Made by a program: the position numbers and the translations under genes | Notes under the pieces: model-generated | What the model was told of the DNA's origin: nothing | Seen by the model: only the letters and a program-made list of their open reading frames with translations | Databases searched by the model: none | Part shown: positions 7,263-30,140 of the stretch, in pieces | How positions within the stretch are numbered: position 1 is the first letter of the stretch | Layout of the letters: every line of letters begins with the position of its first letter | From: a virus | Taxonomy: Duplodnaviria; Heunggongvirae; Uroviricota; Caudoviricetes | IMG/VR virus record: IMGVR_UViG_2681813317_000014 | Strand: one strand, 5' to 3' | Length of the DNA stretch: 31,190 bases

Positions 7263-7283
7263 CCCCCTGAATAAAAACCGGAG

Positions 7284-7697: not shown

Positions 7698-8267
7698 TTT
7701 TATTCAGGATGATTTATATGAACGAATATGTTTATAGCGCAAGGCATAATGCTTTTTTCCCTGTGGATATGATTGATAAATATAAATCAGAGGGATGGGA
7801 TTTATCAGATGCTAAGGAGGTGAGTCAAAATATTATCAGTGAATTTATGGCTGAACCGCCACAAGGAAAAATCCGTATTGCCGGAGGTGATGGGCTGCCC
7901 GCGTGGGCGGATATTCCTGCCCCTACGCATGAAGAACTTATTGAAATTACTGAATCAGAAAGACAGCTACTAATTAATCAGGCCAACGATTATATGAACA
8001 GTAAACAATGGCCTGGTAAAGCGGCTATTGGTCGTCTGAAAGGCGAGGAACTGGCGCAATATAATCTGTGGCTGGATTATCTGGACGCACTGGAACTGGT
8101 CGATACTTCCGGTGCGCCAGATATTAAATGGCCTACGCCTCCGGCAGTTCAGGCCAGATGACATCCGGCGCGGTGCTGGTATCTGTTGCCGTCACCGCGT
8201 CAGTGTAATCCAGCACGGCGTTAAGTCGGGTTGTTTCTGCCTGCGTCAGTTTCCGTCCGGCCTGCAA
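7324..8267. repeat. Inverted duplication arm A (C1 cassette + tfa1 + 3' end of tfa2), partner 9793..10736
   Basis: Reverse-complement identity was checked directly at both ends (7324..7349 against 10711..10736; 8251..8267 against 9793..9809). Encoded proteins are identical throughout. Internal nucleotides were not checked base by base. Confidence 0.8.
7709..8161 (+). CDS. Tail fibre assembly protein, cassette-1 chaperone, duplicate copy a
   Basis: 150-aa ORF identical in protein sequence to ORF 9899..10351 (-). It lies within the 944-bp inverted duplication (coordinates pair as p and 18060 minus p). Confidence 0.7.
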   Translation: MIYMNEYVYSARHNAFFPVDMIDKYKSEGWDLSDAKEVSQNIISEFMAEPPQGKIRIAGGDGLPAWADIPAPTHEELIEITESERQLLINQANDYMNSKQWPGKAAIGRLKGEELAQYNLWLDYLDALELVDTSGAPDIKWPTPPAVQAR

Positions 8268-9325
8268 CCCGTAAATACGTGGATGATGAAGTCCTGGAAT
8301 TAAGGCTGTATGTGGATGAACAGATGAGAAACCACATTGCCGCACAGGATCCTCATACCCAGTATGCACAGAAACATAATCCGACATTTACCGGAGAACC
8401 AAAAGCGCCGACGCCTGATGCAGGAAATAACACCACGCGGATTGCGACCACTGCGTTTGTACAGGCTGCTATTACCGCTCTGATTAACGGTGCGCCAGCC
8501 ACGCTGGACACACTGAAAGAAATTGCCGCAGCCATTAACAATGACCCGAAATTCAGCACCACCATTAACAATGCGCTGGCACTGAAAGCGCCGCTGTCGA
8601 GTCCCGCACTTACCGGAACGCCAACAGCACCTACTGCGGCACAGTCGGTCAACAATACACAGATTGCCACCACGGCTTTTGTGAAATCAGCAATTGCGGC
8701 AATGGTGGGTTCTGCCCCTGCGGCACTGGATACACTGAATGAACTGGCGGCGGCGCTGGGGAATGACCCTAACTTTTCAACAACAGTGCTTAATGCACTG
8801 GCAGGCAAACAACCGCTGGACAATACGCTTACTAATTTGAGTGGAAAGGATGTGGCTGGTCTTCTCGCATACCTTGGTTTGGGAGAAGGCTCTGCATTAC
8901 CTGTTGGTGTCCCTGTTCCGTGGCCTTCAGCTACGCCGCCAACAGGCTGGCTGAAATGCAATGGCGCTGCCTTTGATAAGGTTAAATATCCCCGTCTTGC
9001 TACAGCATATCCATCAGGGAAACTACCTGATCTCCGCGGTGAGTTTATTCGTGGCTGGGATGATGGGCGCGGCATTGATACAGGGCGTGCTTTATTGAGT
9101 ATTCAGAGTGATGAAGTCAGAAAGCTCGCATTAAAATACTGGGGACCAGCTTCAAACAGTTCACCATCAAAAACATTTGCACTCAGCGACAGTGCCGGTG
9201 GCGGGTTGTACACGGATGGAATAAGTCAGGCAAGCGGTGGGATTATCAACGCTTTTCAGCTCCCTGGTGGTAACGAAACCCGCCCACGAAATGTTGCATT
9301 TAACTATATCGTGAGGGCTGCATAA
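8231..9325 (+). CDS. Alternative tail-fibre cassette: 5'-truncated H middle region fused to variable C-terminal receptor-binding domain C2
   Basis: 364-aa ORF. Residues about 12-216 are identical to the H middle region. After the YLGLGE junction (cix site 2) it continues into a different C-terminus (GSALPVGVPVPWPSATPPTGWLKCNGAAFDKVKYPRLA...NVAFNYIVRAA) of the Mu S / P1 S / P2 H tail-fibre tip type. It would fuse to H after inversion between sites 2 and 3. Confidence 0.65.
   Translation: MFLPASVSVRPATRKYVDDEVLELRLYVDEQMRNHIAAQDPHTQYAQKHNPTFTGEPKAPTPDAGNNTTRIATTAFVQAAITALINGAPATLDTLKEIAAAINNDPKFSTTINNALALKAPLSSPALTGTPTAPTAAQSVNNTQIATTAFVKSAIAAMVGSAPAALDTLNELAAALGNDPNFSTTVLNALAGKQPLDNTLTNLSGKDVAGLLAYLGLGEGSALPVGVPVPWPSATPPTGWLKCNGAAFDKVKYPRLATAYPSGKLPDLRGEFIRGWDDGRGIDTGRALLSIQSDEVRKLALKYWGPASNSSPSKTFALSDSAGGGLYTDGISQASGGIINAFQLPGGNETRPRNVAFNYIVRAA
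8268..8887. repeat. Inverted duplication arm M (copy of H middle region, codons about 149-344, ending in cix site 2), partner 10723..11342
   Basis: ORF 8231..9325 shares the segment ATRKYVDDEV...AGLLAYLGLGE with H. Reverse-complement identity was checked at both ends (8268..8291 against 11319..11342; 8860..8887 against 10723..10750), with coordinates pairing as p and 19610 minus p. It abuts arm A with no spacer at 8267/8268. Confidence 0.8.
8862..8887 (+). other. cix/gix-like 26-bp crossover site 2 (TTCTCGCATACC TT GGTTTGGGAGAA)
   Basis: Imperfect 12-bp inverted arms around a 2-bp core, strongly resembling hixL (TTCTTGAAAACC AA GGTTTTTGATAA) from memory. It is the exact reverse complement of site 3 and lies on the codons for LGLGE at the constant/variable junction. 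Confidence 0.6.
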
Positions 9326-9927
9326 TGGATAATGCTGTATTAAATAGCGAGTTTATTGCCACGAAGGCGGGGAATATTACCGTCTATAACTATGATAGTG
9401 AAACACGGGAATATATTTCCACATCAACTGAATATCTTGCTGTGGGGGTCGGTATTCCAGCATGTTCCTGTCTTGATGCACCTGGCATACATAAGGTTGG
9501 TTATGCAATCTGTCGTTCTGTGAATTTAAATTCATGGGAATATGTGCCAGACCATCGCGGTAAAATCGTCTATAGCACAGAAACAGGAGAATCAAAAGAA
9601 ATCACAGCTCCGGGTGATTACCCTGAAAATACAACCACTATCGCCCCTTTATCTCCATACGATAAATGGGATGGTGAGAAATGGGTGACCGATACTGAGG
9701 CACAGCATAGCGCCGCAGTCGAAGCGGCAGAAGCACAGCGCCAGTCACTGATTGATGCTGCTATGGCTTCCATCAGTCTGATTCAACTGAAATTGCAGGC
9801 CGGACGGAAACTGACGCAGGCAGAAACAACCCGACTTAACGCCGTGCTGGATTACACTGACGCGGTGACGGCAACAGATACCAGCACCGCGCCGGATGTC
9901 ATCTGGCCTGAACTGCCGGAGGCGTAG
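9325..9927 (+). CDS. Tail fibre assembly protein, cassette-2 chaperone (Tfa/gpG/Mu U-like)
   Basis: 200-aa ORF directly downstream of the C2 cassette. Its C-terminal tail (LQAGRKLTQAETTRLNAVLDYTDAVTATDTSTAPDVIWPELPEA) is of the tail-fibre chaperone type. Its last 29 nt overlap, on the opposite strand, the 3' end of the convergent tfa1 gene. Confidence 0.8.
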   Translation: MDNAVLNSEFIATKAGNITVYNYDSETREYISTSTEYLAVGVGIPACSCLDAPGIHKVGYAICRSVNLNSWEYVPDHRGKIVYSTETGESKEITAPGDYPENTTTIAPLSPYDKWDGEKWVTDTEAQHSAAVEAAEAQRQSLIDAAMASISLIQLKLQAGRKLTQAETTRLNAVLDYTDAVTATDTSTAPDVIWPELPEA

Positions 9928-10736
9928 GCCATTTAATATCTGGCGCACCGGAAGTATCGACCAGTTCCAGTGCGTCCAGATAATCCAGCCACAGATTATA
10001 TTGCGCCAGTTCCTCGCCTTTCAGACGACCAATAGCCGCTTTACCAGGCCATTGTTTACTGTTCATATAATCGTTGGCCTGATTAATTAGTAGCTGTCTT
10101 TCTGATTCAGTAATTTCAATAAGTTCTTCATGCGTAGGGGCAGGAATATCCGCCCACGCGGGCAGCCCATCACCTCCGGCAATACGGATTTTTCCTTGTG
10201 GCGGTTCAGCCATAAATTCACTGATAATATTTTGACTCACCTCCTTAGCATCTGATAAATCCCATCCCTCTGATTTATATTTATCAATCATATCCACAGG
10301 GAAAAAAGCATTATGCCTTGCGCTATAAACATATTCGTTCATATAAATCATCCTGAATAAAATTATTCACCAACAGCCCACCAACTGTAAGTCATTGACA
10401 CCTTGTCGCTGGTTGATGCAGTTCTGTAAGCAGAATTAAAGCCGGTTAATGTTGGGCCTTCTACGGACATAACGAATCCACGCCCTGCACCAAAAGGCGC
10501 ACCGCCATCGCCAGAATGGGTAAGAATGGCGATATCCGCTTTTTTAGGGAAAGGGATAGGAAATGTAATCCTCATTGTTTGCGTCGATAATTTCGGCATA
10601 GCCTCACCTCGACCATATTGCAGGATTTTCCCGTTGGGTAATTTCATCCATCCATCACCACTGGCAAACGAGGCCATGTCCGGTATCTGATTTTCCCCTG
10701 TCCCCACATTCCGTTTTGCCGCTTCTCCCAAACCAA
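9793..10736. repeat. Inverted duplication arm A' (active copy: 3' end of tfa2, tfa1, C1 part of H)
   Basis: Reverse complement of 7324..8267; see arm A. Confidence 0.8.
9899..10351 (-). CDS. G: Tail fibre assembly protein (gene G equivalent, cassette-1 chaperone, currently linked to H)
   Basis: 150-aa ORF 11 nt downstream of the H stop on the same strand. This is the P2 gene G position. Confidence 0.88.
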   Translation of the reverse strand: MIYMNEYVYSARHNAFFPVDMIDKYKSEGWDLSDAKEVSQNIISEFMAEPPQGKIRIAGGDGLPAWADIPAPTHEELIEITESERQLLINQANDYMNSKQWPGKAAIGRLKGEELAQYNLWLDYLDALELVDTSGAPDIKWPTPPAVQAR

Positions 10737-11784
10737 GGTATGCGAGAAGACCAGCCACATCCTTTCCACTCAAATTAGTAAGCGTATTGTCCAGCGGTTG
10801 TTTGCCTGCCAGTGCATTAAGCACTGTTGTTGAAAAGTTAGGGTCATTCCCCAGCGCCGCCGCCAGTTCATTCAGTGTATCCAGTGCCGCAGGGGCAGAA
10901 CCCACCATTGCCGCAATTGCTGATTTCACAAAAGCCGTGGTGGCAATCTGTGTATTGTTGACCGACTGTGCCGCAGTAGGTGCTGTTGGCGTTCCGGTAA
11001 GTGCGGGACTCGACAGCGGCGCTTTCAGTGCCAGCGCATTGTTAATGGTGGTGCTGAATTTCGGGTCATTGTTAATGGCTGCGGCAATTTCTTTCAGTGT
11101 GTCCAGCGTGGCTGGCGCACCGTTAATCAGAGCGGTAATAGCAGCCTGTACAAACGCAGTGGTCGCAATCCGCGTGGTGTTATTTCCTGCATCAGGCGTC
11201 GGCGCTTTTGGTTCTCCGGTAAATGTCGGATTATGTTTCTGTGCATACTGGGTATGAGGATCCTGTGCGGCAATGTGGTTTCTCATCTGTTCATCCACAT
11301 ACAGCCTTAATTCCAGGACTTCATCATCCACGTATTTACGGGTCGCCAGTACCACCGACGGGTCGATTTTCAGCGTGATGGCTTCGGTATTCGTGACAAC
11401 CAGAATCATGCGGATAGTCTGGGTACGACCACTGCCTTCCTGCAACTGCGGTTTGTACGTTTCCGGGCAGTTCGCCACCGCAATGAGTACGCCTTCATCA
11501 TCATAAAGCCCAATCTCACGGATCCAGAATCCGCCCTCGTTCTCAGGGATGATTTGCTCCGCAATAATCTGGCTCTGGTTGTTCGGGTCAACACTCAGAA
11601 GATTCAGCGGCGCGATGCGTTTCTGGCTAATCAGTTTTGTCTGTGCCGGGTCTGGTGTCGGCAAGACACCATTCGCATCACCAACGGCCATTTGCGTCAG
11701 ATTCAGCTTACTGCCGAGCATCGTCGCGTTAGCCAGCCGTGCTGCGCCCTGATTAGTCAGAATGGCGTAGTATTTCACTGTCAT
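10363..11784 (-). CDS. H: Tail fibre protein H (constant N-terminal and middle part plus variable C-terminal cassette C1)
   Basis: 473-aa ORF with an N-terminus of the P2 H type (MAVGD..., GGFW.RE.GLYDD.G.LIAVAN motif) and the conserved YLGLGE junction followed by the variable C-terminus. Its start overlaps the gene I stop by 4 nt. Confidence 0.9.
   Translation of the reverse strand: MTVKYYAILTNQGAARLANATMLGSKLNLTQMAVGDANGVLPTPDPAQTKLISQKRIAPLNLLSVDPNNQSQIIAEQIIPENEGGFWIREIGLYDDEGVLIAVANCPETYKPQLQEGSGRTQTIRMILVVTNTEAITLKIDPSVVLATRKYVDDEVLELRLYVDEQMRNHIAAQDPHTQYAQKHNPTFTGEPKAPTPDAGNNTTRIATTAFVQAAITALINGAPATLDTLKEIAAAINNDPKFSTTINNALALKAPLSSPALTGTPTAPTAAQSVNNTQIATTAFVKSAIAAMVGSAPAALDTLNELAAALGNDPNFSTTVLNALAGKQPLDNTLTNLSGKDVAGLLAYLGLGEAAKRNVGTGENQIPDMASFASGDGWMKLPNGKILQYGRGEAMPKLSTQTMRITFPIPFPKKADIAILTHSGDGGAPFGAGRGFVMSVEGPTLTGFNSAYRTASTSDKVSMTYSWWAVGE
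10723..10748 (+). other. cix/gix-like 26-bp crossover site 3 (TTCTCCCAAACC AA GGTATGCGAGAA), inside H
   Basis: Exact reverse complement of site 2. It lies in H at the LGLGE codons, in inverted orientation relative to sites 1 and 2. Confidence 0.6.
10723..11342. repeat. Inverted duplication arm M' (H middle region, active copy)
   Basis: Reverse complement of 8268..8887; see arm M. Confidence 0.8.
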
Positions 11785-12392
11785 GCGTTTACTCTCAGGT
11801 TATCAATTAAATGAATGGCCGAGGCCGGGAAATAATCCCCTCCGACAATAATGGCCTCCGGGGTGTAGGGATAAACCGTCAGGGCGTCACCGTGATAGCA
11901 TCCCGCACCGGCAAAAATGTTGCCGGTTGTACTTAAACTGATAGCCAGTCCCGTCAGATGGCGGCTCGCCGGTTTTGCATCAGCAACGAGGCGCTCCAGC
12001 TCCTGATACATTTCCTCGGTAATACCCTGCTCAAGCACGCCAACAACGATGCGGAACGTCCCCGGCTCCTCGTTGAGCTGCCACCACTCCCTCACCTCAA
12101 TCAGATAGCCGAGCGGCTCCACCACACGGCGAATCGCACCAATAGTGCCCTTATGGCAGTGAATGAAATACGCATCGCGGATAACAGCGCGTTTTGTCGC
12201 TTCCGGCCACTTATCATCCCAGCGGTCAACCGAAAATGACCACGCCAGCCACGGCAGCAGATTTGCCGGACAGGTATCCGGGTTCCACAGCTCACGAATA
12301 CTGACCGGCGTTTTTTCAATTTCCGCACAGGCTTTTGCGGCGGCGACTTCAAGTGGTGATGAGCCGGTCGGCAGCAGGCGCGAATCACTCAT
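11781..12392 (-). CDS. I: Baseplate assembly protein I
   Basis: 203-aa ORF between J and H, overlapping both neighbours by a few nt (coupled). Order matches P2 gpI. Confidence 0.9.
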   Translation of the reverse strand: MSDSRLLPTGSSPLEVAAAKACAEIEKTPVSIRELWNPDTCPANLLPWLAWSFSVDRWDDKWPEATKRAVIRDAYFIHCHKGTIGAIRRVVEPLGYLIEVREWWQLNEEPGTFRIVVGVLEQGITEEMYQELERLVADAKPASRHLTGLAISLSTTGNIFAGAGCYHGDALTVYPYTPEAIIVGGDYFPASAIHLIDNLRVNA

Positions 12393-20717: not shown

Positions 20718-22490
20718 ATGACCATCACCACAGACACCACTCTTTTACACGACCCGCGTCGTCAGGCGGCGCTGCTTTACTGGCAGGGGTTTTCCGTGCC
20801 GCAGATTGCCGCCATGTTGCAGATGAAACGCCCGACGGTGCAGAGCTGGAAACAGCGCGACGGCTGGGACAGCGTTGCCCCCATCAGCCGTGTCGAAATG
20901 AGTCTGGAAGCGCGGCTGACCCAGCTCATCATCAAACCGCAGAAAACCGGCGGTGACTTCAAGGAAATTGACCTGCTCGGACGCCAGATTGAACGACTGG
21001 CACGGGTCAACCGTTACAGTCAGACCGGCAACGAGGCAGACCTTAATCCGAACGTCGCTAACCGCAACAAAGGCGGGCGTCGCAAACCGAAAAAGAATTT
21101 TTTCAGTGACGAGGCCATCGAAAAGCTGGAGCAGATTTTCTTTGAGCAGTCTTTCGAATATCAGTTGCACTGGTATCGCGCCGGGCTTGAGCACCGCATC
21201 CGCGATATCCTGAAATCCCGCCAGATTGGCGCAACGTTTTATTTTTCCCGCGAGGCGCTGCTGCGCGCCCTGAAAACCGGTCATAACCAGATTTTTCTGT
21301 CGGCCAGTAAAACGCAGGCGTATGTGTTCCGCGAATACATCATCGCCTTTGCCCGGCTGGTTGACGTTGACCTGACCGGTGACCCGATTGTCCTGGGCAA
21401 TAACGGCGCAAAACTGATTTTTCTCGGCACCAACTCCAACACCGCACAGAGCCATAACGGTGACCTGTACGTCGACGAGATTTTCTGGATCCCGAATTTT
21501 CAGGTACTGCGTAAGGTGGCATCAGGTATGGCCTCACAGAGTCACCTGCGCTCGACCTATTTCTCCACCCCGTCCACGCTGGCGCACGACGCCTATCCGT
21601 TCTGGTCGGGTGAACTGTTCAACCGGGGACGCGCCAGCGCCGCTGAACGCGTGGAAATCGACGTCAGTCATAACGCCCTTGCCGGTGGGCTTCTCTGTGC
21701 GGACGGCCAGTGGCGGCAGATTGTCACCATTGAGGACGCGCTGAAAGGCGGCTGCACGCTGTTCGACATTGAGCAGCTCAAACGCGAAAACAGCGCCGAC
21801 GATTTTAAAAACCTGTTCATGTGTGAATTTGTTGACGACAAGGCGTCGGTGTTCCCGTTCGAGGAGCTGCAACGCTGCATGGTCGACACACTGGAAGAAT
21901 GGGAAGACTATGCACCCTTTGCCGCAAATCCGTTCGGCTCCCGCCCGGTATGGATTGGTTACGACCCGTCACACCGTGGCGACAGCGCCGGATGCGTGGT
22001 ACTGGCACCGCCGGTGGTGGCCGGTGGCAAATTCAGAATACTTGAGCGTCACCAGTGGAAAGGCATGGACTTTGCCACTCAGGCGGAATCCATCCGCAAA
22101 CTCACCGAAAAATACAACGTCGAATACATCGGAATTGATGCCACCGGCCTCGGTGTCGGCGTGTTCCAGCTCGTGCGCTCGTTCTATCCCGCCGCTCGCG
22201 ATATCCGCTACACGCCGGAAATGAAAACCGCAATGGTGCTCAAGGCCAAAGACGTTATCCGCCGTGGCTGTCTGGAATATGACGTCAGCGCCACCGACAT
22301 CACCAGCTCGTTTATGGCTATCCGCAAGACCATGACCAGCAGCGGACGCAGTGCCACCTATGAGGCCAGCCGCAGCGAGGAAGCCAGCCACGCCGACCTC
22401 GCCTGGGCGACCATGCACGCCCTGTTAAATGAGCCACTCACCGCCGGTATCAGCACCCCGCTGACATCCACCATTCTGGAGTTTTACTGA
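20718..22490 (+). CDS. P: Terminase large (ATPase) subunit P
   Basis: ORF 20688..22490; start taken at MTITTDTTLLHDPRRQAALLYWQGFSVPQIAAM... (590 aa) as in P2 gpP. The alternative start is at 20688. Confidence 0.95.
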   Translation: MTITTDTTLLHDPRRQAALLYWQGFSVPQIAAMLQMKRPTVQSWKQRDGWDSVAPISRVEMSLEARLTQLIIKPQKTGGDFKEIDLLGRQIERLARVNRYSQTGNEADLNPNVANRNKGGRRKPKKNFFSDEAIEKLEQIFFEQSFEYQLHWYRAGLEHRIRDILKSRQIGATFYFSREALLRALKTGHNQIFLSASKTQAYVFREYIIAFARLVDVDLTGDPIVLGNNGAKLIFLGTNSNTAQSHNGDLYVDEIFWIPNFQVLRKVASGMASQSHLRSTYFSTPSTLAHDAYPFWSGELFNRGRASAAERVEIDVSHNALAGGLLCADGQWRQIVTIEDALKGGCTLFDIEQLKRENSADDFKNLFMCEFVDDKASVFPFEELQRCMVDTLEEWEDYAPFAANPFGSRPVWIGYDPSHRGDSAGCVVLAPPVVAGGKFRILERHQWKGMDFATQAESIRKLTEKYNVEYIGIDATGLGVGVFQLVRSFYPAARDIRYTPEMKTAMVLKAKDVIRRGCLEYDVSATDITSSFMAIRKTMTSSGRSATYEASRSEEASHADLAWATMHALLNEPLTAGISTPLTSTILEFY

Positions 22491-23524
22491 TGAGCAAGAA
22501 AAAAGGGAAAACACCGCAACCTGCGGCAAAAACAATGACCGCCAGCGCCCCGAAAATGGAGGCATTCACCTTTGGTGAGCCGGTGCCGGTACTCGACCGC
22601 CGTGACATTCTGGATTACGTCGAGTGCATCAGTAACGGCAGATGGTATGAGCCGCCGGTCAGCTTTACCGGTCTGGCAAAAAGCCTGCGTGCTGCCGTGC
22701 ATCACAGCTCACCGATTTACGTCAAACGTAATATTCTGGCTTCAACGTTTATCCCGCATCCGTGGCTTTCCCAGCAGGATTTCAGCCGCTTTGTGCTGGA
22801 TTTTCTGGTGTTCGGTAATGCGTTTCTGGAAAAGCGTTACAGCACCACCGGTAAGGTCATCAGACTGGAAACCTCACCGGCAAAATATACCCGCCGTGGC
22901 GTGGAAGAGGATGTTTACTGGTGGGTGCCGTCCTTCCATGAGCCGACAGCCTTCGCGCCCGGCTCCGTGTTTCACCTGCTGGAGCCGGATATTAATCAGG
23001 AGCTGTACGGCCTGCCGGAATATCTCAGCGCCCTTAACTCTGCCTGGCTGAATGAGTCGGCCACGCTGTTCCGCCGCAAGTATTACGAAAACGGCGCACA
23101 TGCCGGATACATCATGTACGTCACTGATGCCGTGCAGGATCGCAACGATATCGAAATGCTTCGCGAAAACATGGTGAAGTCAAAAGGCCGCAACAACTTT
23201 AAAAACCTGTTTCTCTATGCCCCACAGGGGAAAGCCGACGGCATTAAAATTATCCCGCTCAGTGAAGTGGCAACGAAGGACGATTTTTTTAATATCAAAA
23301 AAGCCAGCGCCGCTGACCTGCTGGACGCGCACCGCATCCCCTTTCAGTTGATGGGCGGCAAGCCGGAGAACGTCGGGTCGCTGGGCGATATTGAGAAAGT
23401 GGCAAAGGTCTTTGTCCGCAATGAGCTTATCCCGTTACAGGACAGGATCCGCGAGATAAACGGCTGGCTCGGCCAGGAGGTCATCCGCTTTAAAAACTAC
23501 TCACTGGACACTGACAACGGCTGA
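22490..23524 (+). CDS. Q: Portal (capsid vertex) protein Q
   Basis: 344-aa ORF whose ATG overlaps the P stop (TGATGA); matches P2 gpQ in size and order. Confidence 0.95.
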   Translation: MSKKKGKTPQPAAKTMTASAPKMEAFTFGEPVPVLDRRDILDYVECISNGRWYEPPVSFTGLAKSLRAAVHHSSPIYVKRNILASTFIPHPWLSQQDFSRFVLDFLVFGNAFLEKRYSTTGKVIRLETSPAKYTRRGVEEDVYWWVPSFHEPTAFAPGSVFHLLEPDINQELYGLPEYLSALNSAWLNESATLFRRKYYENGAHAGYIMYVTDAVQDRNDIEMLRENMVKSKGRNNFKNLFLYAPQGKADGIKIIPLSEVATKDDFFNIKKASAADLLDAHRIPFQLMGGKPENVGSLGDIEKVAKVFVRNELIPLQDRIREINGWLGQEVIRFKNYSLDTDNG

Positions 23525-23528
23525 CATC

Positions 23529-23550
23529 GCCGCCTGCGGGCGGCTTTTTT
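23529..23550 (+). terminator. Rho-independent terminator downstream of Q
   Basis: GCCGCC-TGCG-GGCGGC hairpin (6-bp GC stem) followed by TTTTTT, 5 nt after the Q stop. Confidence 0.6.
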
Positions 23551-23692: not shown

Positions 23693-23711
23693 GTGCTTTC
23701 CCCGCCTCGCC
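23693..23711. other. cos site: 19-nt cohesive-end sequence (GGCGAGGCGGGGAAAGCAC on minus strand), uncleaved
   Basis: The exact 19-mer I recall as the P2/186 cohesive end is present on the minus strand at 23693..23711, in the expected position next to Q. It is flanked by a strongly C/A-rich tract (23550..23690) that could hold terminase-binding sequence. Confidence 0.8.
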
Positions 23712-23930
23712 CGCCCGCTTCATGGGGCGGTTTTAATGCAGTTGCATGAACATACCGAGAATGCGCCAGCACTGACAACGCTCATAAGCGACAGGGGATG
23801 AAAACGCATGCAATTCGATGCAATAGCACATGCATGGATAGAAACGACTGTAATTAAGGGGAAATAGTATAAAAATCCGGCTAAAAATAGCCGACCGTTC
23901 ACTAGAATCGACTATTTATTGCTTATTTTT

Positions 23931-24533
23931 TTACCCCATTTTAACGAGGTGGCTCATTTTTATAGCTGTCACAGAGTCTTCATAATGAGGCACATCTACA
24001 AGAAGAAGTTCTTCATTCCCGGCAAGAGAAACAATGTGCTTTAACAGTAGAGTTTCAATTCTTGATAAATACTCTGGAACTTTTTTATGAAACCCCAGCG
24101 AGTTTTCCCTAACCCGATATGGGTTCCTTACGTGAATATGTTTTGAGCATTCATCATATAGCTTGATAAACTGTTTTTTCGTCAAAAAACCTCCCGTTAG
24201 TTTCGTCCAGCCCGTTTTGGTTACTCCTGATATTGGTACTGGATAAAAGTTAGGGTTTATCTTTTCCAACTCTTTAAATATATTCTTCGCCTTCCATACA
24301 CCATCAATCTTCTTTGTAACCTTCTCGTATGCTTTTTCATGTGAAATTAGAGATGAAAATGCAATGAGCTCTAGTAGCTTCCTAAGCTGCAACGCCTCCA
24401 TTTCAATTAACACTTGAAAATAAACGCCATCAATCCTTCCAGATGATAAAGCATGAAGTGTTTCAAGTCGCTTTTGACATTCAAACATTATCTTTAGATA
24501 TTTTTGTCTTTTTTTCTCATTCATTAATAACAT
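23931..24533 (-). CDS. Hypothetical protein, AT-rich orphan in the cos-A accessory hotspot (candidate defence/exclusion gene)
   Basis: 200-aa ORF, Lys/Leu/Glu-rich and probably largely alpha-helical. It sits in a markedly AT-rich segment unlike the flanking P2 core, with about 215 bp of AT-rich upstream region. I recognise no family. Confidence 0.6.
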   Translation of the reverse strand: MLLMNEKKRQKYLKIMFECQKRLETLHALSSGRIDGVYFQVLIEMEALQLRKLLELIAFSSLISHEKAYEKVTKKIDGVWKAKNIFKELEKINPNFYPVPISGVTKTGWTKLTGGFLTKKQFIKLYDECSKHIHVRNPYRVRENSLGFHKKVPEYLSRIETLLLKHIVSLAGNEELLLVDVPHYEDSVTAIKMSHLVKMG

Positions 24534-24748
24534 GATCTCATCATCATTCTAACGTCATGCAGAAAGCTATATTAGACACGTCACCCGAATAAAGCTTCAT
24601 TACCTAAAAACAAGACCATACCATCAAACATGAGGGGAGGCGTTGAGTTTTTTGTTTTCTCATTGGTTCCAATACCACTAACGCCTCGCGATGCTCGTTG
24701 TTCAACCCCGCCAGCCCTGAAAACAAGTTTCAAGACTGACGGCGTTTT

Positions 24749-24967
24749 CTATAGTCTGCGTGGCGGTGGAGCAACTCTGGACTGACGGATATAATTAAGC
24801 CGCCCGTAATTATCCCGGACTATTTCGGCACACCCGACCAGCTCGTCAGGCGTCAGATTTTCGTTGACCATAATCTGCTGTAGACAGTGAACAATTGCCA
24901 TCAGCTTGATATTTTTAGTGTTATGTTGCGGTATCTCACCTGGTATTCTGTGCATTATCCAAGCCAC
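24749..24967 (-). CDS. Small hypothetical ORF overlapping the 3' end of the upstream gene
   Basis: 72-aa ORF (or shorter from an internal Met, MAIVHCLQQIM...). Its start overlaps the stop of ORF 24955..25443 by 13 nt. No recognisable motif; coding status uncertain. Confidence 0.3.
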   Translation of the reverse strand: MAWIMHRIPGEIPQHNTKNIKLMAIVHCLQQIMVNENLTPDELVGCAEIVRDNYGRLNYIRQSRVAPPPRRL

Positions 24968-25410
24968 CCGTTTTGCTTTGCACGCTCAATCTGTTCATCT
25001 GAATAGTTCCATGCTCCATCCGTGGCAACCATTGCCCCGCCAGACATCCCCGTCTCTGGTTCATACATAACAGCAAGGCCGAGCTGATGCATAATTTCAT
25101 GATTAATTCTGAATACCAGACCACGCTCACTAAGTTCTTTCCAGTTCACAATCTCATATGCGCCTGTATTAAGCAGCTCAATACTTAGCAAGACATAATC
25201 TTCCAGCCAGTCTGACAGGTCAGTAACATCTGTAATCCGGGCTTCAACCTTTCGCCCCGTATACACACCCTGCCCCCATTCATGCAAAATCAACGTATCC
25301 CCGCGCTCATAATTACGGTCATTTTTCCGAAGCTCTGCGCGTTTCTTTCCTTCCAGCACAAGGTCAAAATATTTTGCGTGCAGCTTTACCTCGTGAATTT
25401 TAGCCATCAT
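24955..25410 (-). CDS. Hypothetical protein with N-terminal ASCH/PUA-like (DUF3850-type) region and C-terminal HExxH motif
   Basis: ORF 24955..25443; start taken at the M-M-AKIHEV Met immediately after the gene A stop. The N-terminal 80 aa (KIHEVKLHAKYFDLVLEGKKRAELRKNDRNYERGDTLILHEW) resemble the small ASCH-like DUF3850 family from memory. The C-terminal part carries HEIMH. Confidence 0.6.
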   Translation of the reverse strand: MMAKIHEVKLHAKYFDLVLEGKKRAELRKNDRNYERGDTLILHEWGQGVYTGRKVEARITDVTDLSDWLEDYVLLSIELLNTGAYEIVNWKELSERGLVFRINHEIMHQLGLAVMYEPETGMSGGAMVATDGAWNYSDEQIERAKQNGWLG

Positions 25411-27692
25411 GTCCACTCCATTACTGTTGAGAATCCCGGCCACTCATCAGCGACCGGATACGTGAATTTTTTCCCGTCATAATTTACGGTTGCCCCACGC
25501 GCCAGCGACTCAAGCTCCCATCGCTGCGGCCTGATGCCGTTCTGAGCAAGGTCAACGCGGATACGGGTAATTTGCATTCTTTCCGACCGGGTCAGTCTGG
25601 CCGATGGTGCAATTTCATGTGGTTTTAACGGGCTTCCGTTTCTCTGCTGACGGTTTGGTGTTCTCAGGTCGTGTTTTAATGCACCTCTGAGTGCCCTCAC
25701 GACCTCCGGGTCACTCCATTCGATGACACCGTCATTAACCAGATTAAGCACTGCTGCGGCGTGCTCAGAAGGTGTGGGAGCCGGTAACGAAGTATCACCA
25801 CCAGTGAGCTTTCCACAGTTATTGACAGGACTCCGAGGCGCGGCGATGCCGCTTTTTAAAGTCAAAGGCTCAACGACCGGAACTTTCGGCACAATGCGCC
25901 AGTCCGTCGTTCTGGTGATATGAATATGACGCGCGCCGAGATGCGGCGCGTAAATGCCGACCACTCTCTCGACTTCTTCCTCGTACTCGTTAACGTCATC
26001 CGACGGACTACGGGCGACCCTGACAGTCTGACAATCGCGCGGGACATTTGCCCCGCCCTGCGCGCTGATATACAGCGCAAAATCACCACTGTCTGCGGCG
26101 GCGCGTGCAGCCTCGACGCGCTCGTCAAACTCATCAGCAATGCTGACGCCGCGAGGCAATTTGCGTAGTTCACGGTAAGCCCCCATTGTCGGCAGGCCAA
26201 CCGTTTTAAATTGCGGAATGCGCCACGTTGACGCCCATGCGGTAACAGCCGCTGCAGTGTCTTTCAGCGGCCTGCCGGTGTCGTTATCGAGCTGACCATC
26301 CAGTGCATAGCCGTCGATGTTTTTTGAAATGTATTTCGCGATATATCCCGCAGCACCGCCCCGGTTAAGGTGCTTTGCCTGAAAACGGTTTCGCGCGGCT
26401 CCTCTTTCGTCACCATCCTCTTTGAGCGCATAGCGACGCATGATTTCGATAATCTGGTTACGCTGGCGTGGATTACAAAAAAGCATCATATGCCAGTGCG
26501 GCGTTCCGTCATGGTGTGGCTCGACGACTCGCAAACCGTAGACCTGTAAATCATTATCCTTGAATGCCGTGCGCATCAGGCTCCAGATACGGCAGAGATA
26601 ACGCTGCGCATCCTTTGGATTAAATGCCTCATCGTTCCAGCCGTGATTTAGCTGGACGGTTTTACTTTCGCCTTTTCCGACCTGACGTGTCGGGTGATAC
26701 TTTGACGGCGCGGTCAGCGTGATAAACATCCCCACATCACCCTCTGCGGCGGCGTAACGCTCAATACCAGCAATGGTGTTCATCAGCTCCATCCGGCGAA
26801 TTTCAGGATTAGAAATACTGCCCATCACCTTACTGATAAGGTCGATGCGCTCGCCGGTTTCCCTGTTTTCAAGGTCACACGATTTAAGAAATTCCAGATT
26901 TGCCTGGCGACGTGCACGCACATCACGAATGGCATGTTTACTGGCATAAGGAGAACGGTCTTTATTGACCTCCCCGACAGCAATCAGTAACGCCTCATGC
27001 CAGCGCATACGCTGGCCTTTAAGCTGATGAGTCCACCACTCATCGTTAAACAGGCGGGCAATGGCAGAATATGCCTGCCTCGTGGTCATCTGTCCTTTAC
27101 GGTATTTTTTCCAGTAAAGCGGGGAAATATTGAAAGCACGCGCAGCGCCAGCAACATGACCATACAGATGCGCCTGCGCCTCATCCGTAAACAGCGATTC
27201 TTTTTCGCCATGCGCATCCACCCAGGCATCGCAGAGTTCCCCATACATCATGAAAAGCTGCGATGAGATACGGGCGGCAAACTTTTTCAGCTCCTTGTCA
27301 TTCATCCCCGGCAGACGCGCATAATGGTCACGCTCTGCCAGAAACAGCAACGACGCGTCGGTGTTCATTTCATGGCGCTGATTCACACGCTCAATGCGCG
27401 GCCATAAACGACGCTGAAAAGTGGATGTGAGGAAATAAAACCCGTGTACCGGGCTTTTATTGCGCCGGATGTAGTCATAGCGTGAAGTAAACAGCGAGCG
27501 CAAAAAGTAAGGCAGGCGGTTAATCGTGGATAAAACACCTTGCACCTGACGCATCTCGTCACGTGTAAGGGGTCTTTCGCGCCCGACAGCCTCGCGTGGT
27601 GCGTTCCATGCATAAGCACCGGTAAACGCCTTACCGGTGCCTGCGGCAAATGCTGACGGAGGGACAAAACGCCCGGAGGCTTTAACGGCCAT
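25407..27692 (-). CDS. A: Replication initiation protein A (rolling-circle nicking endonuclease)
   Basis: ORF 25407..27734. Start taken at MAVKASGRFVPPSAF..., giving 761 aa as in P2 gpA, to which the sequence looks near-identical from memory. This start reduces the overlap with the upstream ORF to 11 nt. Confidence 0.93.
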   Translation of the reverse strand: MAVKASGRFVPPSAFAAGTGKAFTGAYAWNAPREAVGRERPLTRDEMRQVQGVLSTINRLPYFLRSLFTSRYDYIRRNKSPVHGFYFLTSTFQRRLWPRIERVNQRHEMNTDASLLFLAERDHYARLPGMNDKELKKFAARISSQLFMMYGELCDAWVDAHGEKESLFTDEAQAHLYGHVAGAARAFNISPLYWKKYRKGQMTTRQAYSAIARLFNDEWWTHQLKGQRMRWHEALLIAVGEVNKDRSPYASKHAIRDVRARRQANLEFLKSCDLENRETGERIDLISKVMGSISNPEIRRMELMNTIAGIERYAAAEGDVGMFITLTAPSKYHPTRQVGKGESKTVQLNHGWNDEAFNPKDAQRYLCRIWSLMRTAFKDNDLQVYGLRVVEPHHDGTPHWHMMLFCNPRQRNQIIEIMRRYALKEDGDERGAARNRFQAKHLNRGGAAGYIAKYISKNIDGYALDGQLDNDTGRPLKDTAAAVTAWASTWRIPQFKTVGLPTMGAYRELRKLPRGVSIADEFDERVEAARAAADSGDFALYISAQGGANVPRDCQTVRVARSPSDDVNEYEEEVERVVGIYAPHLGARHIHITRTTDWRIVPKVPVVEPLTLKSGIAAPRSPVNNCGKLTGGDTSLPAPTPSEHAAAVLNLVNDGVIEWSDPEVVRALRGALKHDLRTPNRQQRNGSPLKPHEIAPSARLTRSERMQITRIRVDLAQNGIRPQRWELESLARGATVNYDGKKFTYPVADEWPGFSTVMEWT

Positions 27693-27957
27693 ATGAGCCA
27701 AAAGCCTCTGAACAACGCTTGCTGAGTTGCTCAACCTGCGCGTTTAAATCAGCAAAAGACTTTGCGCTTCCGGTCAGAATATCGTGATGCATCAGGCCGG
27801 AAACGAGCTGGCTTAATTTCGGGTAATAACCAACCACCGACAGCCATTCCTGACCGGCGTTTTTACCGCTTTCCGCTCTCTTTTTCTCGTGGAGAATAAA
27901 CTGAAAGCTGTCACTGGTAACGACATAACGTTCGCCAATTTCAATACGAATACTCAT
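27682..27957 (-). CDS. Small early-operon protein (P2 orf83-like position)
   Basis: 91-aa ORF, translationally coupled to neighbours, between B and A. Confidence 0.6.
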   Translation of the reverse strand: MSIRIEIGERYVVTSDSFQFILHEKKRAESGKNAGQEWLSVVGYYPKLSQLVSGLMHHDILTGSAKSFADLNAQVEQLSKRCSEAFGSYGR

Positions 27958-28178
27958 GCCGTTCTCCGGTAATGTTTGTTTTTTGCTTCAAAGACTGACT
28001 GACAGGAAACACAACGCGTGGCTGACGGATAAGCCGCACGACGGGCAGCAGGTATTGGCGCATCACACTCTTCGCAAACCAGCGAAGAAACACCGCAATG
28101 TTTTACCCTTGCCGCGTTAATCTGGCGCTCCAGTAATTCAGCCTGTTGTTCCTGAATAAAATCTACGTTGTCCGGCAT
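27954..28178 (-). CDS. TraR/DksA-type C4 zinc-finger protein (P2 orf82-like)
   Basis: 74-aa ORF with C-x2-C ... C-x2-C (CEECDAPIP...CVSCQ) typical of the TraR/DksA family, which is known in P2-like early regions. Confidence 0.7.
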   Translation of the reverse strand: MPDNVDFIQEQQAELLERQINAARVKHCGVSSLVCEECDAPIPAARRAAYPSATRCVSCQSVFEAKNKHYRRTA

Positions 28179-28483
28179 TACCAGTTCCTTTTGTCGTTCA
28201 GTTTTTTAAATTCATCAGCGCAATAGCTGGCGATTTCTGTCGTTAATTTCGTCAGTTCATCCACGGAGGAAATTTGCTTGTGAAATACAGCGCGTTTAAC
28301 AAGTAAATTGACCACATCAGACAGGAGATTTAATTCGTTCTGATAAATCGCGATAACAGACTCAGTTATTTTGCGTTTTTCTTTATCAAGACCAAGTTGA
28401 ATAAGAGATAAATCGCCATTTTTCATAACGGTGATTTTTAAGGCGTTATTCAGTAATACAACTGAACGAGAACAGGACATCAA
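28178..28483 (-). CDS. Small early-operon protein (P2 orf81-like position), AT-rich
   Basis: 101-aa ORF; start and stop overlap with neighbours; AT-rich composition. Confidence 0.6.
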
Positions 28484-28737
28484 AGCACCTCCCCGCGAGA
28501 CAATCCGATATTGTGAAATTTTTCCGACTCCTGACTGAGCTGCTCGACTATCTCCACGCGGGATAACTCCGCCTTTGTGATGTGGCGAATCATGGCGTCA
28601 AGATGAGAAGAAAAGCGCGTCGCTGCGTCGGCCTGTGCTTCGGTTCTGGCCTGTTGCAGCAGTAATGCGTATTTACCGCACTGATTTTCAGAAACTGTAT
28701 GCATGACTTTCTCCAGGCAAAAAGAAGCCCCGCACAA
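28480..28737 (-). CDS. Small early-operon protein (P2 orf80-like position)
   Basis: 85-aa ORF directly downstream of B, overlapping the next ORF by 4 nt. Confidence 0.6.
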
Positions 28738-28767
28738 TTAAGTGCGTTAAAAACTCTGGTTAATTAC

Positions 28768-29274
28768 TTAATGCAGATATTGCTCTGGTTTTACCGACGT
28801 CAGAATTGTCGGTGCATACTCAAACAGACTGAATAATTCACGTAATGCACGGAATAAAGCATCACGCCAGTAACATGACTCTTCATTAATTCGCCAGTAT
28901 GGCTGGTTGAATTCTTTTTCAGTCAATCCGGCATGCATAAATAAAGTACGACGCTGACTGACTGTTAAAAAACTAATATATGCATACTCACTTGCGCCAA
29001 CCTGACGGCGTTTTGAGAATCCCCCACGCAATTCATCAATTGCACAAACCAGCCGTTCACGTTCGACGTCGTTCATTTCTTCAAAACGCATCGTTGCGTG
29101 ACGCTGTTTTAACTGCGCATGGAAGCAAACCGTTAGCCGTTCGCGTTCCATCATCTGATTATAATAATCACATGTATCCTGCCAGCGAGGGACGGCAAGA
29201 TGCTTACCAATTATCCGGCGCATAGCTGCTGGCTGTTTTTCAACGAGATTAAGCGTCATCACTGTCATTTCCAT
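28768..29274 (-). CDS. B: Replication protein B (helicase-loader-like)
   Basis: 168-aa ORF in P2 gpB position and size within the cox-B-A early operon. Confidence 0.85.
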   Translation of the reverse strand: MEMTVMTLNLVEKQPAAMRRIIGKHLAVPRWQDTCDYYNQMMERERLTVCFHAQLKQRHATMRFEEMNDVERERLVCAIDELRGGFSKRRQVGASEYAYISFLTVSQRRTLFMHAGLTEKEFNQPYWRINEESCYWRDALFRALRELFSLFEYAPTILTSVKPEQYLH

Positions 29275-29462
29275 ACCCTCCGGCTTTTCAGAAAGGTCAG
29301 AGCCTTCTTTAACGGACTCTGTTTTTTGGTGCGGATAATGATTCCCTTGCGCCCCTTCCCGTGGGTGATGGTGAAGTCAATCGCCCTGGGGCTTTCGTTA
29401 CGCAGTAACTGAGCAATACAACGCGGCTCATTCATAATCACAACCCCATCCACAAAAGCCAT
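29265..29462 (-). CDS. Small basic early protein (P2 orf78-like position)
   Basis: 65-aa Lys/Arg-rich ORF between cox and B, overlapping both. Confidence 0.5.
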   Translation of the reverse strand: MAFVDGVVIMNEPRCIAQLLRNESPRAIDFTITHGKGRKGIIIRTKKQSPLKKALTFLKSRRVWK

Positions 29463-29725
29463 GCATCACGCTGTTCAACCGGTCGGTTATAAAACGCCTC
29501 ACGTACAGCGCGATTAAACTCAGGAATGAAAACCCATTTTTCACCGGCACGAGCCTTCGGTTTGCAAGGATCACGCAATTCAATAATTGGTAATTTATTT
29601 GCCTTCACCATTTCACTGACGGCTGTCTTTGGCTTCCCTAATAAATCAGCAAATTTATCCACATGAACCGCATCAAGCGGATACTGAATCACATAATTTT
29701 CAGCGTCCATATATGGTACCCTCAT
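29438..29725 (-). CDS. cox: Cox-like excisionase / early-promoter regulator
   Basis: 95-aa ORF, first gene of the early operon and divergent from C, with a helix-turn-helix-like segment and a C-terminal ...DAWLLWMGL similar to P2 Cox. The alternative start at 29710 (MDAENY) has a better GAGGG ribosome-binding site. Confidence 0.75.
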   Translation of the reverse strand: MRVPYMDAENYVIQYPLDAVHVDKFADLLGKPKTAVSEMVKANKLPIIELRDPCKPKARAGEKWVFIPEFNRAVREAFYNRPVEQRDAWLLWMGL

Positions 29726-29787
29726 AGGATCCAGCCCTTTCTAAACCACTCAAAACCGTTTAGACGCTGGTTTATTCTCAAATCAAT

Positions 29788-29835
29788 GGAACCTATATAG
29801 GTTCCAGTTTTGAGGGAATTTAGTCCCTATATAGG
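29788..29835. promoter_or_regulatory. Lysis-lysogeny switch operator/promoter region (repeated CCTATATAGG elements, one inside an 18-bp perfect palindrome)
   Basis: GGAACCTATATAGGTTCC (29788..29805) and CCTATATAGG (29826..29835) lie in the 121-bp divergent cox/C intergenic region. Repeated operator half-sites overlapping TATA-like -10 elements are expected for C/Cox control. Confidence 0.5.
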
Positions 29836-29846
29836 CACCATGTCAA

Positions 29847-30140
29847 ATGAAATTAAGCGAAAAGATTAAGGCCTTGCGTGAGGCTGAAGGGCTAAGCCAA
29901 TCAAAATTCTGTGAAATCATAGAGTTACCGCTAAGCACACTTAAAAAATATGAAGGAGGAAACTTTGAACCCGGTGGCACAGCTTTACTAAAAATCACTA
30001 TGCATCCCACATTCCAAAAATATGCTCTATGGCTTATGACAGATAAAACCGCGCCGGACGCAGGACAAATCGCACCGGCTCTCGCGCACATTGGGCCAGA
30101 GTCAACAGAGTCCAACCACTCCGCGAAAAGGATTGGCTAA
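29847..30140 (+). CDS. C: Immunity repressor C
   Basis: 97-aa ORF divergent from cox, ending ...GQIAPALAHIGPE..., closely resembling the P2 C repressor (about 99 aa) from memory. Confidence 0.85.
   Translation: MKLSEKIKALREAEGLSQSKFCEIIELPLSTLKKYEGGNFEPGGTALLKITMHPTFQKYALWLMTDKTAPDAGQIAPALAHIGPESTESNHSAKRIG

What the first reader, a model, noticed from the sequence alone, without database searches (positions are those of the whole stretch)
23931..24533. AT-rich orphan gene (200 aa) in the cos-A accessory hotspot where P2 carries tin/old: candidate undescribed anti-phage or exclusion function
Seen: a 200-aa ORF sits in a segment far more AT-rich than the surrounding P2 core, with its own roughly 215-bp AT-rich upstream region, at the cos-proximal variable locus. 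Established: this locus is where P2 itself carries tin and old, and it is a recognised hotspot for defence systems in P2-like prophages. Inference: I recognise no family for this protein. It is predicted to be helical and Lys/Glu/Leu-rich, and it contains an R-x6-H stretch (RENSLGFH) that would fit a HEPN-like Rx4-6H motif only weakly. Cargo at this site is typically a defence or superinfection-exclusion module, so this is the most likely place for a new one.
Basis: partly seen in the sequence, partly recalled or inferred. Interest (0 to 1): 0.78.

Follow-up and report, generated by a model that had tools for sequence, protein, structure and literature searches.

The report
Mobile unannotated gene in P2 hotspot
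The AT-rich 200-codon gene next to the cos site of this P2-like prophage is a real, intact, swappable cargo gene from a large unnamed protein family that also travels as integron cassettes and phage add-on genes, so it is a credible but untested candidate for a one-protein anti-phage function.

Summary
A 200-aa ORF (23931-24533, minus strand; probable true start M4, giving 197 aa) lies 220 bp from an exact P2 cos site. It sits in the lowest-GC stretch of the window (0.36 against 0.53) and has a terminator-like hairpin after its stop. It is cargo: 1 phage among 50,697 phage records and 20 of 5,426 complete E. coli genomes carry it, while the flanks are widely shared.

It is not an orphan. It matches PHROG 13799 (function unknown) and a profile finds 2,262 50%-identity clusters, none matching Pfam, NCBIfam or PADLOC.

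New here: the 46-52%-identical relatives are integron gene cassettes, including in the Vibrio cholerae superintegron. More distant relatives are add-on genes in other phages, sit beside restriction-modification, Gabija or ABC-ATPase genes, or stand alone. No partner gene is conserved.

Best reading (about 0.45): a self-contained anti-phage or abortive-infection protein. Function is untested.

The parts
23931..24533 (-). ORF200, the cargo gene. 200 aa from the first ATG; the probable true start is the ATG at 24524 (197 aa). Member of PHROG 13799.
   Evidence: (E=2.3e-109). All family-invariant residues are present. RefSeq annotates 197 aa, WP_021519103.1.
23877..23894 (-). Terminator-like hairpin followed by a T-run, 37 nt after the ORF200 stop codon.
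   Evidence: 7-bp stem, then ATTTTTAT; sequence.
24534..24676 (-). Cargo-specific AT-rich 5' flank of ORF200 (GC 0.39). No sigma-70 consensus promoter was detected. By eye there is a TAGAAT box 16 nt before the first ATG.
23823..24676 (.). Approximate extent of the variable (swapped) segment of the hotspot in this prophage.
   Evidence: Other P2-like phages and E. coli prophages align only outside this segment: up to about 23813-23822 and from about 24674-24677.
23693..23711 (-). cos cohesive-end sequence, identical to P2 cosR.
24749..24967 (-). Conserved 72-aa small gene (PHROG 11386, Wphi gp92-like). It forms the core-side border of the cargo here.
   Evidence: It lies downstream of the homologue in Salmonella and Enterobacter prophages.
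24955..25443 (-). orf91 homologue (DUF3850/ASCH plus DUF7415), P2 core.
25407..27734 (-). gpA replication nickase, one border of the hotspot.
22490..23524 (+). gpQ portal, the other border of the hotspot, followed by a terminator-like hairpin at 23529-23544.

Best explanation
ORF200 is an intact copy of a large, unannotated family of soluble, basic proteins of about 200 aa. The family moves between genomes as a single-ORF module. Here it is the only cargo in the gpA-cos hotspot of a P2-like prophage.

Most likely function: a self-contained anti-phage protein of the abortive-infection or exclusion type, made by the lysogen. One polypeptide would both sense an incoming phage and act on it.

Fold and functional surface: the core is a four-helix bundle with HEPN-like topology. 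It carries a helical and beta-hairpin insert between helices 2 and 3, and a small C-terminal sheet. Its functional surface is not an Rx4-6H motif. It is the family-invariant polar set on the inward helix faces (R22, E44, R51, E55, H134-x-x-N137-P138, H166) together with the invariant NPxFYPxP loop. The target would be RNA or other nucleic acid, or a phage protein.

Shown:
- the gene is real and intact;
- it is cargo in the hotspot;
- the family is large and unannotated;
- it is mobile on integrons, phages and small chromosomal islets;
- it has no conserved partner gene;
- the RENSLGFH motif is not conserved.

Inferred:
- expression in the lysogen;
- anti-phage activity;
- the HEPN-like relationship;
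- the identity of the active residues and the target.
For: Hotspot and cargo status. In this hotspot 3 of 8 previously unknown loci, plus old and tin, were active against an 8-phage panel (PMC9122126). Defence genes are the dominant recognisable cargo of P2 elements (PMC13586616).

The gene works alone: there is no conserved neighbour across 25 loci.

Integron cassettes:
- 13 of 16 marine loci have the attC R' box GTTAAAC 14-15 nt before the ATG.
- 9 of 16 have the stop codon inside R'' (GTT-TAA-C) followed by a folding attC.
- attC arrays are present in Marinobacter and Halopseudomonas.
- The V. cholerae copy is flanked by VCRs on chromosome 2, with different neighbours in two strains.
- 18% of unknown V. 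cholerae superintegron cassettes were anti-phage (bioRxiv 10.1101/2024.07.02.601686).

Other contexts: between the tail chaperone and tape measure of a siphovirus, and after the tail genes of another phage. Also beside type I restriction-modification, just downstream of two ORFs of Gabija GajA/GajB size in Shewanella (assignment of the Gabija hits to this locus is inferred from ORF sizes), two small ORFs upstream of an AAA_15/21 ATPase in a GPA/AlpA element, and after Fic at a prophage end.

Patchy, horizontally transferred distribution: most clusters are singletons. The marine cassette copies are 78-91% identical across different orders.

Rare fusions to zinc ribbons and to a 3-transmembrane anchor.

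Add-on-gene (moron) features: GC 0.36 and its own terminator.
Against: There is no experimental evidence for any family member, and no paper was found that mentions it.

No hit to 5,027 PADLOC models, even for 80 diverse members.

The fold evidence is weak:
- Foldseek finds nothing in PDB or BFVD (best E 1.2 and 0.48).
- A family profile finds nothing in PDB at E<=10.
- The defining HEPN motif is absent.

Only a minority of neighbourhoods contain known defence genes; several are plain housekeeping.

No promoter was detected upstream, so expression in the lysogen is not established.

The hotspot and integrons also carry non-defence cargo. About 60% of tested unknown P2 loci and about 80% of tested unknown cassettes showed no activity.
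Confidence: 0.45

Rival explanations
1. Non-defence accessory cargo. The family would be a small soluble helical-bundle protein with some other niche function, such as ligand or metal binding, a minor enzyme, a regulator or a stress factor. It would simply hitch-hike on integrons and phage hotspots.
For: Most integron cassettes and many P2-hotspot loci show no anti-phage activity or carry other functions such as partition systems or the CDT toxin. Many homologues sit alone among housekeeping genes. The conserved inward-facing His, Glu and Arg residues of a helical bundle would also fit a ligand or metal site. No defence-model hit.
Against: The family recurs at classic add-on-gene and defence positions in three unrelated phage types and beside restriction-modification, Gabija and ABC-ATPase genes. 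Its distribution is extremely patchy and singleton-rich. No metabolic operon partner is conserved.
Confidence: 0.27
2. A function that benefits the phage, either counter-defence or inter-element competition. The protein would inhibit a host defence system, or act for P2 against satellites or competitors during the lytic cycle.
For: It is co-directional with the early operon (A, orf91, the 72-aa ORF). No terminator or promoter was detected between them, so read-through expression during lytic growth is possible. It also occurs inside structural operons of other phages.
Against: Anti-defence genes are rare in P2 elements (28 of 1,511). Most family members are in bacterial chromosomes and integrons without any phage. 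Orientation alone is weak evidence.
Confidence: 0.12
3. Toxin or addiction module that stabilises the prophage or cassette array, with an unannotated small-RNA or micro-ORF antitoxin.
For: Toxin-antitoxin cassettes are common in superintegrons. HEPN-like folds are frequent toxins. Truncated 123-aa forms are widespread in Salmonella and also occur in E. coli, as expected if the gene is costly.
Against: No conserved adjacent ORF. The marine cassettes leave only 8-9 nt between the attC core and the ATG, and the attC begins at the stop codon, so there is no room for a partner. No Rfam RNA in the flanks.
Confidence: 0.08
4. Canonical HEPN RNase that uses RENSLGFH (R142...H149) as its Rx6H catalytic motif.
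For: The motif lies where a HEPN motif would be expected, at the helix-3/helix-4 loop and the start of the last core helix.
Against: R142 is G, S, E or Q in close homologues. Across 80 diverse members position 142 is K18/E9/G8/R7 and position 149 is E13/K10/L8/H7. No HEPN Pfam family matches.
Confidence: 0.03

Closest known systems
P2 hotspot cargo genes old and tin, and the other gpA-gpQ hotspot systems of Rousset et al. 2022
   Same: Same locus, between orf91/gpA and cos/gpQ. Non-essential and variably present. Lower GC than the phage core. Short systems of one or a few genes.
   Different: No sequence or profile similarity to Tin (hhalign probability 0.1%) or to any PADLOC model, including OLD. 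It is transcribed towards cos, co-directionally with A, whereas the old-tin operon is transcribed away from cos. Its activity is untested.
HEPN superfamily: MNT-HEPN toxins such as SO_3166 (5yep) and 7ae2, HI0074, the Csx1/Csm6 HEPN domains, and single-gene HEPN abortive-infection proteins such as AbiV
   Different: No conserved Rx4-6H motif. No profile match to any HEPN Pfam family or to any PDB sequence. No significant Foldseek match. It has an extra C-terminal three-stranded sheet and a different invariant set (R22, E44, R51, E55, H134, N137, H166).
Anti-phage integron cassettes of sedentary chromosomal integrons (Darracq et al. 2024), for example 'Esos', a single gene with only a HEPN-like domain
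   Same: Relatives of ORF200 are true attC-bounded single-gene cassettes, including in the V. cholerae superintegron. Small size and no detection by defence-finding tools.
   Different: The V. cholerae homologue occurs on only 32 contigs. It is therefore unlikely to be one of the N16961 cassettes that were tested. This is an inference; the sequences of the tested cassettes were not available for comparison. The window copy has no attC.
Phage morons (autonomous add-on genes, in the sense of Hendrix and colleagues)
   Same: Deviant GC, its own terminator, inserted between core genes, and present or absent among otherwise collinear phages. Distant relatives are inserted in tail operons of other phages.
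   Different: No recognisable own promoter was found by the consensus scan.

Membership tests
HEPN superfamily | Four-helix up-down bundle core, commonly with an insertion between helices 2 and 3 | tested here: inconclusive
HEPN superfamily | Conserved Rx4-6H motif at the start of the last core helix | tested here: not met
   RENSLGFH exists in the window copy, but R142 and H149 are each present in only 7 of 80 family members. R142 is already lost in close relatives.
HEPN superfamily | Sequence or profile similarity to a described HEPN family | tested here: not met
   Pfam: no family hit for the query or for 80 diverse members. The single HEPN_RiboL-PSP hit has E=0.07 in 1 of 80. The PDB profile search gave 0 hits at E<=10.
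HEPN superfamily | Metal-independent RNase activity, with dimerisation forming a composite active site | not testable with these tools
   Needs biochemistry or multimer modelling.
P2-like gpA-gpQ (cos-proximal) hotspot cargo | Located between gpA/orf91 and cos/gpQ | tested here: met
P2-like gpA-gpQ (cos-proximal) hotspot cargo | Variable presence among otherwise collinear P2-like elements | tested here: met
   93 phage records share the flanks, but only vB_YpM_50 carries the gene. Among E. coli genomes, 20 of the 221 that share the flanks carry it. In Salmonella and Enterobacter only the coding sequence is shared.
Known anti-phage defence systems (PADLOC-DB 2.0) | Match to a model of a described or candidate defence protein | tested here: not met
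   0 hits for the query. Only scattered one-off hits, mostly E>1e-3 (best 5.6e-4), among 80 members.
Anti-phage defence (functional class) | Reduces phage plating or propagation when expressed | not testable with these tools
   No experiment was possible and no literature on this family was found.
Integron gene cassette | Promoterless ORF that begins just after the GTTRRRY core of the preceding attC and is followed by its own folding attC | tested here: met
   Met for the relatives, not for the window copy. GTTAAAC lies 14-15 nt before the ATG in 13 of 16 loci. An attC overlaps the stop codon in 9 of 16. attC arrays are seen and flanking VCRs in V. cholerae. The window copy has no attC-like flank.
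Moron | Own promoter and terminator, and atypical base composition | tested here: inconclusive
   Terminator-like hairpin and GC 0.36 are met. No consensus promoter was found on the coding strand in 24534-24760.
Type II toxin-antitoxin module | Conserved adjacent partner gene | tested here: not met
   No shared neighbour outside the P2 core genes in 25 loci. The cassette boundaries leave no room for one.
P2 Tin | Sequence homology to Tin | tested here: not met
   hhalign probability 0.1%.

The most novel reading that the evidence does not exclude
ORF200 is the founding, phage-borne member of a new and widespread family of single-protein anti-phage systems. The family would be shared between integron cassette pools (including the V. 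cholerae superintegron) and phage hotspots. It would use a HEPN-like helical bundle that has replaced the Rx4-6H catalytic motif with a different invariant site (R22, E44, R51, E55, H134-xx-N137-P, H166).
Probability: 0.3. Interest if true: 0.65.

Novelty: new variant of a known kind. Interest (0 to 1): 0.5.

Why it matters
If active, this would add a compact defence gene of about 0.6 kb with no match to current defence models, and the family profile would let at least 2,262 further clusters be flagged as its relatives. It would also be a concrete case of one gene family moving between integron cassette arrays and the P2 cos-proximal hotspot. That would link two reservoirs of bacterial immunity that have so far been studied separately. 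The conserved residue set gives a clear mutagenesis plan. If inactive, it is a useful counter-example to the assumption that hotspot cargo is always defence.

Tried and rejected
Family libraries:
- Pfam, NCBIfam and PADLOC were scanned with the query and with 80 diverse family members. Nothing was found.
- PHROGs gives only an unknown-function family.

Structure and profile searches:
- Family profile against PDB sequences: 0 hits at E<=10.
- Foldseek against PDB and BFVD: no hit below E=0.4.
- AFDB50 was unavailable.

HEPN via RENSLGFH was rejected on conservation.

Homology to Tin was rejected.

Partner-gene or two-gene system was rejected. The 243-aa (Salmonella) and 307-aa (Pseudomonas) upstream ORFs did not cluster with each other or with any other neighbour.

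Longer family members were scanned for informative fusions. No Pfam domain was found. Only rare zinc-ribbon-like or transmembrane extensions appeared.

Rfam scan of the flanks: nothing.

Promoter scan: no hit on the coding strand upstream of the gene.

Literature searches by PHROG id and by protein accessions: nothing.

Comparison with the tested V. cholerae cassette 'Esos' could not be done, because its sequence or locus tag is not in the text held.

The neighbourhood screen for defence genes gave only modest enrichment and is not statistically compelling.

Full report
**1. What is in the sequence**

The window is a P2-like prophage. It is 97-98% identical over most of its length to Yersinia phage vB_YpM_50, and it runs from the ogr side to int.

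The ORF is at 23931-24533 on the minus strand and encodes 200 aa. Homologues and RefSeq start at the second in-frame ATG (24524), which gives 197 aa.

Its GC content is 0.358 (GC3 0.338), against 0.532 for the window. The 24001-24500 bin is the lowest-GC bin in the whole window. An open frame of this length at this composition has a chance probability of about 7e-8.

A terminator-like hairpin (23894-23877) follows the stop codon.

The 19-nt P2 cohesive-end sequence occurs once, at 23693-23711. That is 220 bp beyond the stop codon, and the sequence is identical to cosR of P2. In P2 this interval, between orf91 and cosR, holds tin and old. The positional claim is therefore correct.

**2. Cargo, not core**

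- Ninety-three phage records share the flanking DNA. Only vB_YpM_50 (two records of one phage) carries the gene.
- Of 5,426 complete E. coli genomes, 221 match the flanks and 20 carry the segment. All copies are chromosomal, and the one checked lies between portal and orf91/gpA.
- The alignments break at about 23813-23822 and about 24674-24677. This defines a variable segment of about 0.85 kb that contains only this gene.
- In Salmonella and Enterobacter the 73-77%-identical homologue is in the same gpA-portal interval of 186-like or P2-like prophages.
- In those prophages DNA similarity to the window is confined to the coding sequence (24513-23973). The conserved 72-aa gene that lies upstream here lies downstream there.
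- The gene is therefore exchanged as a single-ORF module.

**3. Not an orphan**

The protein matches PHROG 13799, a family of unknown function (E=2e-109).

A word-indexed search found 44 clusters. A profile search of 1.84 billion representatives found:

| E-value cut-off | Clusters |
|---|---|
| <=1e-3 | 2,262 |
| <=1e-10 | 1,497 |
| <=1e-30 | 309 |

Nearly all are proteins of about 200 aa. They come from many lineages, including Gammaproteobacteria, Nitrosomonas/Nitrosospira, Sulfuricurvum and Acidobacteriota. Most clusters are singletons.

Neither the query nor 80 diverse members match any Pfam, NCBIfam or PADLOC model. No paper mentions its identifiers.

**4. Conserved residues and fold**

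Across 80 diverse members:
- E55, P98, L117, L162 and H166 are invariant.
- Y12, M16, R22, E44, R51, A58, Y97, P100, H134, N137, P138, I159 and L163 are at least 90% conserved.

The window copy has all of these.

Position 142 is K18/E9/G8/R7 and position 149 is E13/K10/L8/H7. Even close relatives read GKSSLAFH or SENSLAFH.

The AlphaFold2 model is confident (pLDDT 84.9, pTM 0.85). Its elements are:
- helices at 6-30 and 39-62;
- an insert of two short helices and a beta-hairpin;
- helices at 119-133 and 145-164;
- a three-stranded C-terminal sheet.

I therefore call the fold 'HEPN-like', but membership of the HEPN superfamily is not established, because the defining motif was tested and is absent.

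The protein is basic (pI 9.5) and has no transmembrane segment. This argues against a membrane-bound superinfection-exclusion protein. By helical periodicity the conserved polar residues fall on the same helix faces as the conserved hydrophobic residues. This suggests an internal polar site.

**5. Genomic contexts of relatives: the main new result**

No neighbouring gene is conserved across 25 loci, apart from the P2 core genes in the enterobacterial copies.

*Integron cassettes.* The 46-52%-identical group comes from marine Gammaproteobacteria: Marinobacter, Halopseudomonas, Halomonas, Shewanella, Neptuniibacter, Natronospira, Pseudomonas benzenivorans and others. This group has integron-cassette architecture.
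- In 13 of 16 loci the attC core GTTAAAC lies 14-15 nt before the ATG. The junction GTTAAACGGTAAAGC-ATG is conserved.
- In 9 of 16 loci the stop codon lies inside an R'' box (GTT-TAA-C), followed by a hairpin-forming attC of 58-108 nt that ends in a GTTRRRY-like core.
- Marinobacter and Halopseudomonas loci show arrays of such repeats between small same-strand ORFs.
- A V. cholerae homologue (P0358) lies on chromosome 2 between two V. cholerae repeats. It has different neighbouring cassettes in two strains.
- The marine copies are 78-91% identical across different orders, which points to recent horizontal spread.

*Distant relatives (about 30-36% identical to ORF200).*
- In a siphovirus, between the tail-chaperone region and the tape measure; in another phage, after the tail genes.
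- Beside a type I restriction-modification system.
- Just downstream of two ORFs of Gabija GajA/GajB size in a Shewanella contig.
- Two small ORFs upstream of an AAA_15/AAA_21 ATPase, in an element with a GPA-type replicase and an AlpA-like HTH gene.
- After a Fic gene at a prophage end.
- In an element that encodes a polyvalent protein.
- As solitary insertions among housekeeping genes.

**6. Interpretation**

The features are:
- a single autonomous gene;
- an extremely patchy distribution;
- carriage by integrons, by the P2 cos-proximal hotspot and by add-on-gene sites in other phages;
- occasional adjacency to known defence genes;
- deviant base composition and its own terminator.

This is the pattern seen for small single-gene defence or abortive-infection systems.

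Published base rates give some calibration. In the same P2 hotspot, 3 of 8 unknown loci were active against an 8-phage panel (PMC9122126). In V. cholerae, 18% of unknown superintegron cassettes were anti-phage, all of them one- or two-gene systems missed by DefenseFinder (bioRxiv 10.1101/2024.07.02.601686).

Combining these, I put an anti-phage function at about 0.45. I put a specifically HEPN-derived nuclease mechanism well below that.

Counter-points:
- Nothing has been tested.
- The fold link is weak.
- Most neighbourhoods are not defence islands.
- No promoter is recognisable in the 143-bp cargo-specific leader.
- The gene is co-directional with the early operon, unlike old and tin. Expression could therefore be by lytic-phase read-through, which keeps a function that benefits the phage in play.
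- Truncated 123-aa forms are common in Salmonella. That fits either a costly gene or a dispensable one.

**7. Novelty and verdict**

The hotspot and the idea that its cargo is often defensive are already known. This family is not described anywhere I could search, and it lies outside all current family and defence models.

The new observations here are its size, its invariant residue set and its double life as an integron cassette and as phage hotspot cargo.

I rate it a new variant of a known kind: a single-gene candidate defence cargo with a HEPN-like core that lacks the HEPN motif. Interest is 0.5. It is a well-supported and cheap experimental candidate, but one of many such hotspot genes, and its function remains inferred.

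Noticed in passing
window 6663-11784: An invertible tail-fibre module in this P2-like prophage. A serine invertase (Resolvase plus HTH_7) is at 6663-7262 (minus strand), next to alternative tail-fibre C-termini and three tail-fibre chaperone genes. Long inverted repeats lie at 7312-8267 / 9793-10748 (99%) and 8264-8888 / 10722-11346 (100%). This region (window 6695-11956) is also the only part that does not align with vB_YpM_50.
   Followed up: partly
L010:1-3424; L015:3000-17000; L046:3000-9000: The homologue-bearing regions of Halopseudomonas salina, Marinobacter sp. BW6 and V. cholerae are attC/VCR cassette arrays. In several other genomes (for example P. benzenivorans L025 and Dasania L012) the cassette's 5' junction GTTAAACGGTAAAGC survives without a recognisable downstream attC. 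These may be stranded cassettes outside arrays.
   Followed up: partly
window 24749-24967 versus L003:10813-11046, L030:10811-11044: The conserved 72-77-aa gene (PHROG 11386, Wphi gp92-like) lies upstream of the cargo gene in the E. coli prophage but downstream of it in Salmonella and Enterobacter prophages. The insertion point within the hotspot therefore differs.
   Followed up: partly
clusters of P0006 and P0007: Truncated 123-124-aa versions of the homologue are widespread. P0222 is on 231 Salmonella contigs, and there are also E. coli and Citrobacter examples. This suggests recurrent inactivation or an alternative start.
   Followed up: no
L011:11-3560: In the Shewanella sp. SG41-4 contig, two ORFs of 592 and 599 aa lie just upstream of the homologue. 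A GajA hit (E=5e-234) and a GajB hit (E=8e-230) appear in the pooled neighbour scan. Assigning those hits to this locus is inferred from the ORF sizes.
   Followed up: partly
L042:7148-13519: An integrative element downstream of rpoD, with a Phage_GPA replicase and an AlpA-like HTH gene. It carries the homologue two small ORFs upstream of an AAA_15/AAA_21 ABC-ATPase and two unknown proteins of 557 and 270 aa. This may be a satellite-like defence island.
   Followed up: no
P0117, P0178, P0077, P0100: Rare family members carry extensions: an N-terminal 3-transmembrane anchor (P0117), or CxxC...CxxC zinc-ribbon-like segments (P0178 and P0077 at the N-terminus, P0100 at the C-terminus). Some of these may be gene-calling artefacts.
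   Followed up: no
window 24642-24691 (minus strand): An inverted repeat, GAGGCGTT...AACGCCTC, with a 34-nt loop straddles the core/cargo junction upstream of ORF200. It is not a canonical terminator, and its role is unknown.
   Followed up: no
window 28001-30000: A second low-GC zone (0.41-0.44) lies in the early/immunity region near int. It was not examined.
   Followed up: no
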